From contig OZ240251.1 in NCBI GenBank assembly GCA_965198285.1, positions 624,220 through 688,219 on the forward strand: a DNA stretch of 64,000 bases, given 5' to 3'. The position numbers and the translations under genes are program-made. Position 1 is the first letter of the stretch. Every line of letters starts with the position of its first letter. The notes below the pieces were generated by a model that did no database searches, was not told where the DNA came from, and worked only from the letters and a program-made list of their open reading frames with translations. This document shows, in pieces, positions 48,434 to 49,948 of the stretch. The DNA is from Chloroflexota bacterium (GTDB taxonomy: Bacteria > Chloroflexota > UBA11872).

Positions 48434-49948
48434 GAGTTTGATCCTGGCTCAGGATGAACGTTGGCGGCGTGCTTTACCAATGCGAGTCGAACGGTACGGG
48501 GAGGCTCTTCGGAGCGCCCACGACCGTGGCGTCCGGGTGCGTAACACGTAGCTAACCTACCGGTCGGTGGGGGAAAACTCCGGGAAACCGGAGGTAATCC
48601 CGCATATGGTCGCCTGGTAGACAGGTAGACAAAAGCTGTTGTCGGGGAACCGGCAATGGCGCCGGCTGAGGGGGCTGCGGCTGATTAGCTAGTTGGTGGG
48701 GTAATGGCTCACCAAGGCTGTGATCGGTAGCGGGTCTGAGAGGATGATCCGCCACACGGGGACTGAGATATGGTCCCGAGCCCTACGGGGTTTAGCATGG
48801 AGGAATCTTGCGCAATGGGCGAAAGCCTGACGCAGCGACGCCGCGTGGGGGATGAAGGCCTTCGGGTTGTAAACCCCTTTTCTGGGGGACGCAAATGACG
48901 GTACCCCAGGAATAAGCCACGGCTAACAGGGTGCCAGCAGCCGCGGTAATACCTTGGTGGCAAACGTTATCCGGAATCACTGGGCGTAAAGCGCTCGTAG
49001 GCGGCACGGCAGGTGTTCGGTGAAAGCCCCCGGCTTACCCGGGGAGGGTCCGAGCAAACCGCCGAGCTAGAGGCAGGCAGAGGACCGTGGAACTTCCGGG
49101 GGAGTAGTGGAATGCGTAGATCCCGGACGGAACACCAGAGGCGAAGGCGGCGGTCTGGGCCTGACCTGACGCTGAGGGGCGAAAGCGCGGGGAGCAAACA
49201 GGATTAGATACCCTGGTAGTCCGCGCCGTAAACGATGGACGCTAGGTGTGTGGGGGGCTCAACCCTCCTGCGTGCCGGAGCTAACGCGGTAAGCGTCCCG
49301 CCTGGGGACTACGGTCGCAAGACTAAAACTCAAAGGAATTGACGGGTGCCCGCACAAGCAGCGGAGCGTGTGGTTCAATTCGAGGCTACGCGAAGAACCT
49401 TACCGGGGTTTGACATCACACGGCCATCCCGCGAAATCGGGAGTTCCTTCGGGACCGTGTGACAGGTGCTGCATGGCTGTCGTCAGCTCGTGCCGTGAGG
49501 TGTTGGGTTAAGTCCCGCAACGAGCGCAACCCTCGACGCTAGTTGTATATGTCTAGCGTGACTGCCGCGGACAACGCGGAGGAAGGTGGGGATGATGTCA
49601 AGTCCGCATGGCCCTTATATCCCGGGCTACACACACGCTACAATGGCCAGTACAACGGGCAGCAACCTGGCGACAGGAAGCGAATCCCTAAAAGCTGGTC
49701 TCAGTTCGGATTGCAGGCTGCAACTCGCCTGCATGAAGTCGGAGTTGCTAGTAACCGCAGGTCAGCACACTGCGGTGAATACGTTCCCGGGCGTTGTACA
49801 CACCGCCCGTCACGCCATGAAAGTCGGCAACACCTGAAGCCGGTGAGCTAACCCTTGGGAAGCAGCCGTCGAGGGTGGGGTTGGCGATTGGGGCGAAGTC
49901 GTAACAAGGTAGCCGTAGCGGAAGCTGCGGCTGGATCACCTCCTTTCT
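48434..49948 (+). rRNA. rrs: 16S ribosomal RNA
   Basis: 5' GAGTTTGATCCTGGCTCAG...GTGCCAGCAGCCGCGGTAATAC...GCATGGCTGTCGTCAGCTCGTG...GTACACACCGCCCGTCA...GGATCACCTCCTTTCT 3'. No 23S or 5S gene follows. Confidence 0.95.

What the first reader, a model, noticed from the sequence alone, without database searches (positions are those of the whole stretch)
48760..48960. 16S rRNA deviates at normally invariant positions (EUB338/341F target and the region before 515F)
Where bacteria almost universally have ACTCCTACGGGAGGCAGCAGTGGGGAATATTGCACAATGG, this gene reads GCCCTACGGGGTTTAGCATGGAGGAATCTTGCGCAATGG. The 5' hypervariable region also begins GGATGAACGTTGGCGGCGTGCTTTACCAATGCGAGTCGAACGG, and GGCTAACAGGGTGCCAGCAGCCGCGG replaces ...AACTACGTGCCAGC.... 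Multiple mismatches to the EUB338/341F site would make the organism invisible to common amplicon primers and FISH probes. That points to a poorly sampled, deep-branching lineage.
Basis: partly seen in the sequence, partly recalled or inferred. Interest (0 to 1): 0.5.

Follow-up and report, generated by a model that had tools for sequence, protein, structure and literature searches.

The report
Sponge Chloroflexota 16S with altered primer site
This is an intact, working-looking 16S rRNA gene from an uncultured but already well-sequenced group of sponge-associated Chloroflexota; its unusual bases at the classic "universal" EUB338/341F site are mostly matched by changes on the opposite strand, so it is a lineage signature, not damage or a new phylum.

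Summary
The window holds a full-length bacterial 16S rRNA gene (48426-49946, +; Rfam RF00177, 1455 bits). All three quoted strings are present.

Most deviations are compensated helix changes: h14 (339-350 C-G to G-U; 340-349 U-A to C-G), h5 (53-358 A-U to C-G; 54-357 C-G to A-U), h18 (512-539, 513-538, 514-537) and h3 (36-548). Only C352 to U and C330 to U have no evident partner. G351 to U may add an A338-U351 pair.

The same 25-mer at the site occurs in 38 species-level genomes, 31 of them with 90-98.5% identical 16S. Four of these relatives are sponge MAGs that GTDB places in Chloroflexota class UBA2235, order UBA11872. The 25-mer also occurs in lake and soil relatives with only 78% 16S identity. 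The signature is therefore old, conserved and real.

In silico, EUB338 I-III (at least 6 mismatches) and 341F (4, including the 3' base) fail. 515F, 806R, 926R, 1391R and 1492R match perfectly, and 27F has one 5' mismatch.

"Pseudogene", "chimera" and "poorly sampled new lineage" are not supported. Poor EUB338/341F coverage of Chloroflexota is already documented. Interest is low to moderate.

Side observations are a conserved 16S, RNase P RNA, tRNA-Met gene order without 23S, and a 14.7-kb island next to the gene.

The parts
48426..49946 (+). 16S rRNA gene, full length (1521 nt)
   Evidence: RF00177, 1455 bits, model positions 1-1533, not truncated. It is 97.6-98.4% identical to full-length 16S of 12 other species-level genomes.
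48779..48802 (+). EUB338/341F target region (E. coli 338-361): helix 14 hairpin (339-350), the U351-U352 linker and the 3' strand of helix 5 (354-359, 361)
   Evidence: Sequence. cmscan marks no non-canonical pair in this block. Pair table in E. coli numbering and pair counts.
48477..48483 (+). 5' strand of helix 5 (E. coli 52-58, CCAAUGC); carries the partners of the changed bases at 357 and 358
   Evidence: 53-358 changes from A-U to C-G and 54-357 from C-G to A-U in the window. Across 36 sequences 53-358 shows C-G, A-U, G-C and G-U, and 54-357 shows A-U and C-G.
48792..48793 (+). U351 and U352, replacing the near-universal G351 and C352
   Evidence: U351 can pair with A338: A-U in 30 rows, G-C in 1 row, A.G in ordinary bacteria. 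U352 has no partner found.
48769..48771 (+). Helix 13 loop with U328 and U330 (GAGAUAUG instead of GAGACACG)
   Evidence: U330 is present in every genome with a changed 351.
48927..48956 (+). Helix 18 middle stem (E. coli 511-515 with 536-540): CAGGG paired with CCUUG
   Evidence: 512-539 U-A to A-U, 513-538 C-G to G-U, 514-537 C-G to G-C. The 530-loop pseudoknot 505-507/524-526 is unchanged.
48461..48461 (+). U36 (the T in ACGTTGG), which pairs with A548 at window 48964 in helix 3
   Evidence: In alignment A1 every sequence with T here has A at 548 (GCAAACG or GCGAACG), and every sequence with C has G.
48258..48285 (+). Leader arm of the processing stem that encloses the 16S
   Evidence: 28-nt inverted repeat, 93% complementary, with 50078-50105. 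Conserved in relatives with compensatory changes.
50078..50105 (+). Trailer arm of the processing stem
50136..50452 (+). RNase P RNA (bacterial class A), directly downstream of the 16S trailer in place of a 23S
   Evidence: RF00010, 170 bits. The same order is seen in 14 relatives.
50582..50656 (+). tRNA with CAT anticodon
   Evidence: ARAGORN; Rfam tRNA, 63 bits.

Best explanation
The feature is the functional small-subunit rRNA gene of an uncultured sponge-associated Chloroflexota bacterium (GTDB class UBA2235, order and family UBA11872).

Its departures from the bacterial consensus at the EUB338/341F site, in the 5' region and before 515F form one coherent lineage signature. Bases on both strands of helices 3, 5, 14 and 18 have changed together, so every helix still forms. 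G351 to U probably adds an A338-U351 pair at the base of helix 14. C352 to U and C330 to U are tolerated single changes.

The rRNA therefore folds and works like any bacterial 16S. Oligonucleotides aimed at positions 338-357 cannot bind.

Shown here: the sequence, intact pairing, conservation across many genomes, and the primer mismatches. Inferred: function in the ribosome, the A338-U351 pair, and neutrality of U352 and U330.
For: - Gene integrity: full-length Rfam match with few non-canonical pairs, and none in the h5, h14 and h18 blocks.
- Pairing: on a 36-sequence alignment, 98.1% of cells in 32 tested pairs form standard pairs, against 36-48% when partners are slid by 1-3 columns. 13 pairs change on both sides, and 0 of 500 shuffles reach the observed values.
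- Specific compensations are listed.
- Conservation of the site: the identical 25-mer CCTACGGGGTTTAGCATGGAGGAAT occurs in 30 of the 39 genomes found; 8 others differ only by G at position 360. It is present in relatives with only 78% 16S identity and in lake, soil and marine metagenome contigs.
- Selection: the 16S is 98% identical to its nearest relatives while flanking DNA is 84-92% identical, as expected under purifying selection.
- Genomic context: flanks on both sides are syntenic with relatives, and a conserved leader/trailer processing stem encloses the gene.
- Taxonomy: relatives L002, L034, L036 and L020 are sponge MAGs classified as c__UBA2235; o__UBA11872. The window's GC of about 0.67 fits the 65.1% reported for UBA11872.
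- Phylum probes: the Chloroflexi probe site CFX1223 matches perfectly.
Against: - No expression or ribosome data exist for this gene.
- I could not scan the complete chromosomes of relatives for a second, canonical 16S copy, so "sole functional copy" is not shown.
- C352 to U and C330 to U hit positions that are conserved across bacteria and have no identified compensation. An effect on ribosome function cannot be excluded.
- The A338-U351 pair rests on one A-U to G-C exchange plus the A.G to A-U change, in related sequences.
- Class assignment is by 16S identity to classified MAGs, not by a genome-wide phylogeny of this contig.
Confidence: 0.9

Rival explanations
1. The gene is a decaying or pseudogenised rRNA copy, and the odd bases are unconstrained mutations.
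For: Several bases differ at positions that are strongly conserved in Rfam's consensus: G351, C352, C330 and an A to G change in the 690 loop.
Against: - The gene is full length.
- 98.1% of tested pair cells are standard pairs, with 13 pairs changed on both sides.
- The same bases are fixed in 38 species-level genomes and across 78%-diverged lineages.
- The 16S is more conserved than its flanks.
- The 530 loop, 790 loop, 1390-1400 region and anti-Shine-Dalgarno end are intact.
Confidence: 0.02
2. The divergent stretch is an assembly artefact or a chimera of two organisms' 16S genes.
For: 16S genes are frequent sites of misassembly in metagenomes. One unrelated metagenome contig (L047) is indeed a scrambled 16S. 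The window has a 14.7-kb segment upstream that relatives lack.
Against: - The whole gene, not just one stretch, is 97.6-98.4% identical to independently assembled genomes, including complete long-read chromosomes.
- The changed bases at 338-361 pair with changed bases at 52-58, about 300 nt away in the same gene. A chimera would break this pairing.
- Both flanks (48123-48425 and 49947-50660) are collinear with relatives.
Confidence: 0.02
3. The gene marks a previously unsampled, deep-branching lineage such as a new phylum.
For: - 16S identity to E. coli is only 73%.
- No cultured organism carries the signature.
- The class is known only by placeholder names.
Against: - 31 species-level genomes have 90-98.5% identical 16S.
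- Relatives are classified in Chloroflexota UBA2235/UBA11872, with 48 MAGs reported for UBA11872.
- Chloroflexi probe sites are present.
Confidence: 0.03
4. The changes are not neutral. Remodelling of the base of helix 14, plus U351, U352 and U330, alters how this region of the 30S subunit works, giving these lineages a functionally distinct ribosome. From my own knowledge, not checked here, helix 14 forms intersubunit bridge B8 and mutations in it affect decoding fidelity.
For: - G351, C352 and C330 are strongly conserved, yet are replaced and then frozen across lineages that differ by 22% elsewhere in the 16S.
- The same U351-U352-U357 state recurs in an Armatimonadota class (L010, Ca. Zipacnadia).
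- Single 352 variants elsewhere are rare.
Against: - The UACG loop and the upper h14 pairs are unchanged.
- The predicted hairpin stability is similar to E. coli's or slightly higher: -8.4 against -6.6 kcal/mol for the isolated hairpins.
- Conservation after fixation is also what a neutral but coupled set of changes would show.
- No functional or structural data are available.
Confidence: 0.1

Closest known systems
EUB338-II and EUB338-III target variants of Planctomycetales and Verrucomicrobiales (Daims et al. 1999, as cited in PMC6753630)
   Same: A whole lineage carries changes in the 338-355 target, so the "universal" probe fails although the rRNA is functional.
   Different: The bases differ. 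The window has at least 6 mismatches to probes II and III as well. It also changes 351, 352 and 357, which those variants keep.
Chloroflexi that do not bind EUBmix, such as Ca. Promineofilum and Ca. Trichobacter; about 20% of Chloroflexi sequences in SILVA have no perfect EUBmix match (Speirs et al. 2019, PMC6753630)
   Same: Same phylum and same practical consequence. This shows the general phenomenon is documented.
   Different: Those are activated-sludge Anaerolineae and Ardenticatenia whose closest probe is EUB338-III. I found no paper that describes the GGGGUUUAGCAU variant of UBA2235/UBA11872 and TK10-type lineages.
341F coverage gaps for Chloroflexi and Armatimonadetes (Klindworth et al. 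2012, PMC3592464)
   Same: The paper reports that 341F/785R fails Chloroflexi at zero mismatches and that Armatimonadetes fail through a 3' end mismatch of the forward primer. The window has a 3' terminal mismatch at 357 (G to U). The Armatimonadota genome L010 also has U at 357.
   Different: The window has four mismatches, not one. Allowing one mismatch, which rescues most Chloroflexi in that study, would not rescue it.
Close relatives: sponge MAGs COS2_bin_4, COS3_bin_17, RHO3_bin_23 and RHO3_bin_74 (Robbins et al. 2021, PMC8163846) and long-read chromosomes such as OZ242271 and OZ253587
   Same: 16S identity of 91.5-98.5% (L002, L034, L036, L020, L019 and L005), the same signature, and for the loci scanned (L034, L019, L005) the same gene order (SAM riboswitch for L034 and L019, 16S, RNase P RNA).
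   Different: The best 16S identity is 98.5% over a partial match (L002) and 98.4% over the full length (L014). Flanks are 84-95% identical, so this genome is not one of the species representatives. It also has a 14.7-kb island that they lack.

Membership tests
Bacterial SSU rRNA (Rfam RF00177) | Full-length match to the covariance model above the gathering score | tested here: met
   1455 bits against a gathering score of 50, model 1-1533, no truncation.
Bacterial SSU rRNA (Rfam RF00177) | Conserved helices still form (h3, h5, h13, h14, h18 and the 530 pseudoknot) | tested here: met
   98.1% of pair cells are standard, against 36-48% in slid controls. cmscan non-canonical-pair marks are sparse.
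Bacterial SSU rRNA (Rfam RF00177) | Functional core motifs are present (530 loop, 790 loop, 1390-1400 decoding region, 3' CCUCC) | tested here: met
   The 515F, 806R, 1391R and 1492R sites match perfectly. The 3' end reads GGATCACCTCCTTTCT.
Bacterial SSU rRNA (Rfam RF00177) | Expressed and incorporated into 30S subunits | not testable with these tools
   No transcript or ribosome data are available.
Phylum Chloroflexota | Targets of the phylum probes CFX1223 and GNSB941 | tested here: met
   CFX1223 has 0 mismatches and GNSB941 has 1 terminal mismatch. E. coli has 2 and 3.
GTDB c__UBA2235; o__UBA11872; f__UBA11872 (sponge-associated) | Close 16S identity and synteny to genomes classified there | tested here: met
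   98.5% to COS2_bin_4 (L002), 97.8% to RHO3_bin_23 (L036), 92.2% to COS3_bin_17 (L034) and 91.5% to RHO3_bin_74 (L020), L002, L036 and L020 over partial matches. Their classification comes from the supplement of PMC8163846. The flanks are collinear with other close relatives in the same 16S group (L014, L019, L026, L005 and others).
GTDB c__UBA2235; o__UBA11872; f__UBA11872 (sponge-associated) | Placement by concatenated marker proteins (the GTDB criterion) | not tested
   No marker-gene phylogeny was run on this window.
rRNA pseudogene | Truncation, broken helices, or substitution rate like the flanking DNA | tested here: not met
   The gene is full length, its helices are intact, and the 16S is 98% identical to relatives against 84-92% for the flanks.
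Linked rrn operon (16S-tRNA-23S-5S) | 23S rRNA follows the 16S on the same strand | tested here: not met
   There is no LSU match anywhere in the 64-kb window. RNase P RNA and tRNA-Met follow instead. The same holds in 14 relatives, whereas the TK10-type lake genomes do have 16S followed by 23S.

The most novel reading that the evidence does not exclude
The block of changes (U330; A338-U351; G339-U350; C340-G349; U352; A54-U357; C53-G358) is a single ancient event. It unites sponge UBA11872 with lake and soil TK10-type Chloroflexota, and it replaces nucleotides otherwise conserved in all bacteria at the base of helix 14. On this reading these uncultured lineages carry a 30S subunit with altered bridge B8 or 5'-domain packing that no one has studied, because no cultured organism has it.
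Probability: 0.1. Interest if true: 0.5.

Novelty: new member of a known kind. Interest (0 to 1): 0.25.

Why it matters
The main value is practical.

- A common, sponge-specific Chloroflexota lineage will be missed or undercounted by V3-V4 (341F) amplicons. Wiegand 2023 reports it as the third most abundant Chloroflexota class-level group among coral and sponge MAGs. Its lake and soil relatives that share the signature are affected in the same way.
- The same lineages will also be missed by EUB338-based FISH counts.
- V4 (515F/806R) and full-length primers do see them.
- The 25-mer at 48782-48806 was found only in Chloroflexota among the species-level genomes of 185,579 species. It could therefore serve as a group-specific probe or primer site.

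Biologically, this is a clean natural example of coordinated, compensated change at one of the most conserved stretches of 16S rRNA. Two uncompensated changes (U352, U330) remain, and their structural cost is unknown.

Tried and rejected
1. A tertiary pair G331-C352 or C330-G351 as the explanation for U352, U351 and U330. Metagenome variants with U, G or A at 352 alone keep C330 and G331, and U330 opposite U351 is not a pair. No support.

2. A G337-U352 pair extending helix 14, which the isolated hairpin fold predicts. Rejected because 337 covaries with 316 (C-G in 27 rows, G-C in 9 rows). In the TK10-type group 337 is C while 352 stays U.

3. A 48-360 pair. The observed states are CA, UA, UG and AA, so the two positions do not pair.

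4. Archaeal-like origin of the CCCTACGGGG stretch. The whole gene scores best as bacterial SSU and archaeal primers and probes mismatch. The resemblance reflects only the C340-G349 pair.

5. The label "Thermoflexus hugenholtzii JAD2" on L009 and L015 suggested a cultured carrier. These are lake MAGs, and L015 is 99.5% identical in 16S to the Lake Biwa TK10 MAG (L004). The label is unreliable.

6. Literature searches for this specific variant, for SILVA names (TK10, TK17) tied to UBA2235, and for a 16S-rnpB arrangement found nothing specific.

7. I first took all 39 genome hits to be Chloroflexota. One of them (L010, Ca. Zipacnadia) is an Armatimonadota class. It has U351-U352-U357 with an otherwise ordinary helix 14.

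Full report
**What is there**

The window carries a complete bacterial small-subunit rRNA gene at 48426-49946 on the + strand (RF00177, 1455 bits, model 1-1533). The EUB338/341F stretch and the pre-515F stretch lie inside the given coordinates. The 5' string is at 48452-48494, outside the stated range.

I aligned the gene to E. coli rrsH (L040) to obtain standard numbering. Window 48779 is E. coli 338, window 48931 is E. coli 515, and window 48433 is E. coli 8.

**The deviations are mostly compensated**

In E. coli numbering, the window differs from E. coli as follows.

| Helix | Pair | E. coli | Window |
|---|---|---|---|
| h14 | 339-350 | C-G | G-U |
| h14 | 340-349 | U-A | C-G |
| h5 | 53-358 | A-U | C-G |
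| h5 | 54-357 | C-G | A-U |
| h18 | 502-543 | A-U | C-G |
| h18 | 503-542 | C-G | A-U |
| h18 | 512-539 | U-A | A-U |
| h18 | 513-538 | C-G | G-U |
| h18 | 514-537 | C-G | G-C |

- The UACG loop and the two upper pairs of h14 are unchanged.
- The "odd" 5' string ACCAATGCGAG is the partner strand of the "odd" GCATGG after the EUB338 site.
- The 530-loop pseudoknot of h18 is untouched.
- The T in ACGTTGG (position 36) co-occurs with A at 548, its partner in helix 3, in every sequence that has it.

cmscan marks no non-canonical pair in these blocks. The 3' two-thirds of the gene is equally regular.

I tested 32 pairs on a 36-sequence alignment (A1: the window, E. coli, relatives, and ordinary bacteria from metagenomes).

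- 98.1% of cells form standard pairs, against 36-48% when partners are slid by 1-3 columns.
- 13 pairs change on both sides.
- No shuffle out of 500 reaches the observed values.
- One row (L047) is a scrambled contig and adds a little noise.

**What is not compensated**

G351, C352 (the linker after h14) and C330 (the h13 loop) are upper-case, meaning strongly conserved, in Rfam's consensus. All three are U here.

- G351 to U may create an A338-U351 pair at the base of h14. Across A1 this pair is A-U in 30 rows, G-C in one lineage, and A.G in ordinary bacteria. The isolated hairpin folds with it, at -8.4 against -6.6 kcal/mol for E. coli. This is an inference from few events.
- I found no partner for U352 or U330. 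Metagenome variants that differ at 352 alone keep everything else standard. A 337-352 pair is excluded because 337 covaries with 316.

**Who carries it**

I scanned one genome for each of 185,579 species for U351-U352 in this context. The scan returned 39 genomes.

| Group | Genomes | 16S identity to the window |
|---|---|---|
| Closest relatives | 17 | 97.5-98.5% |
| Second group | 14 | 90.6-95.7% |
| Lake MAGs (one labelled TK10) | 5 | about 78% for the four full-length sequences; the fifth (L009) is partial |
| More distant | 3 | lower still |

One of the three distant genomes, L010 (Ca. Zipacnadia), is Armatimonadota.

- Thirty of the 39 share the exact 25-mer CCTACGGGGTTTAGCATGGAGGAAT. 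Eight more differ only at position 360.
- The same 25-mer occurs in lake, soil and marine metagenome contigs.
- Four of the relatives are MAGs from the sponges Coscinoderma matthewsi and Rhopaloeides odorabile. GTDB classifies them as p__Chloroflexota; c__UBA2235; o__UBA11872; f__UBA11872 (Robbins 2021 supplement).
- Wiegand 2023 lists 48 UBA11872 MAGs with 65.1% GC, found only in corals and sponges, and treats UBA2235/UBA11872 as an uncultured class. The window's GC is about 0.67.
- The Chloroflexi probe site CFX1223 is perfect.

**Artefact and pseudogene readings**

- The whole gene matches many independent assemblies, including complete long-read chromosomes.
- Changed bases about 300 nt apart pair with each other.
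- Both flanks are collinear with relatives.
- The 16S is about 98% identical to relatives whose flanking DNA is 84-92% identical.

These points argue against a chimera and against relaxed constraint.

**Primers and probes in silico**

| Oligonucleotide | Mismatches to the window |
|---|---|
| EUB338-I | 6 |
| EUB338-II, EUB338-III | at least 6 each |
| 338F, 357F | 7 |
| 341F (Klindworth version) | 4, including the 3' base |
| 341F (degenerate version) | 3 |
| 63F | 7 |
| 27F | 1, at the 5' end |
| 515F, 518R, 785R, 806R, 907R/926R, 1100R, 1391R, 1492R, UNIV1390 | 0 |

The organism is invisible to V3-V4 amplicons and to EUB338 FISH. It is visible to V4, V4-V5 and full-length approaches.

**What is already known**

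- About 20% of Chloroflexi sequences in SILVA lack a perfect EUBmix match, and some filaments do not hybridise (Speirs 2019).
- 341F/785R fails Chloroflexi at zero mismatches, and fails Armatimonadetes through a 3' mismatch (Klindworth 2012).
- I found no paper describing this particular variant. The kind of finding is established, though, and the lineage is well represented by genomes.

**Verdict**

It is right about EUB338 and 341F. It is wrong about general invisibility, poor sampling and possible pseudogenisation.
- The gene is a new member of a known kind, of low to moderate interest.
- The residual open point is whether U352, U330 and the remodelled base of h14 have any functional effect.

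**Context noticed on the way**

- The 16S is enclosed by a conserved leader/trailer stem (48258-48285 with 50078-50105).
- It is followed not by 23S but by RNase P RNA (50136-50452) and tRNA-Met (50582-50656). This order is shared by all 14 UBA11872-type relatives examined. The TK10-type lake genomes have 16S followed by 23S.
- A 14.7-kb segment (about 33445-48120) separates the SAM riboswitch from the 16S only in this genome. It encodes two giant fibronectin-III repeat proteins.

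Noticed in passing
window 48258-50656: The 16S stands alone: leader stem, 16S, trailer stem, then RNase P RNA 30 nt after the stem and tRNA-Met(CAT) 130 nt later. There is no 23S in the 64-kb window. The 16S, rnpB, tRNA order is conserved in all 14 UBA11872-type relatives checked, with a 16S-to-rnpB spacer of 190-376 nt. TK10-type lake relatives have 16S followed by 23S. No terminator-like or promoter-like site lies between the 16S and rnpB on the + strand. Co-transcription is possible but not shown, and I found no description of such an arrangement.
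   Followed up: partly
window 33445-48120: A 14.7-kb segment is absent from at least 11 related genomes, where the SAM riboswitch (window 33296-33401, minus strand) lies only about 400-500 nt from the 16S. The segment encodes two giant fibronectin type III repeat proteins (37295-43756, 2153 aa; 44558-47692, 1044 aa) and a histidine kinase (34615-35832, minus strand). It has strong AT skew at 38-44 kb. From my own knowledge, not checked here, eukaryote-like repeat proteins of this kind are typical of sponge symbionts.
   Followed up: partly
window 50660-53180: A second strain-specific segment of about 2.5 kb with lower GC (0.56-0.61). It is absent or reduced in relatives such as L026. Its two ORFs (51777-52430 and 52464-53078) have no Pfam match.
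   Followed up: partly
window 61686-61760: A class-I-shaped tRNA with anticodon loop CUACUAA, so the anticodon is ACU (ARAGORN calls it "Ser"). Judged from my memory of E. coli tRNA-Arg(ACG), not compared with a tool, its body looks like that tRNA with the last anticodon base changed. This would be an unusual decoder if real, or it is a sequence error.
   Followed up: partly
window 61765-61840: An adjacent tRNA-Cys-like gene: GCA in the loop, U73, and CCA encoded. By my manual parse of the sequence it has an 8-nt anticodon loop (CUUGCAAA) and mismatches in the acceptor and anticodon stems. Rfam gives only 40 bits and it does not fold better than shuffles. It may be a pseudogene, a homopolymer sequencing error, or an odd tRNA.
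   Followed up: partly
L003, L029 and L058, helix 18 (E. coli 512-513 with 538-539): Relatives at about 94% identity show U512 opposite U539 and A513 opposite C538. These look like intermediate, unpaired states between the ordinary UAC/GUA form and the window's AGG/CUU form of helix 18.
   Followed up: no
L009 and L015 (CAMBEO010000001, CAMDTO010000013); L047 (FUFK010756237): Two lake MAGs are labelled "Thermoflexus hugenholtzii JAD2". L015's 16S is 99.5% identical to the Lake Biwa TK10 MAG (L004), and L009, a partial 16S, groups with the same lake MAGs, so the label looks wrong. L047 is a metagenome contig with three scrambled and inverted 16S fragments.
   Followed up: no
   Followed up: no
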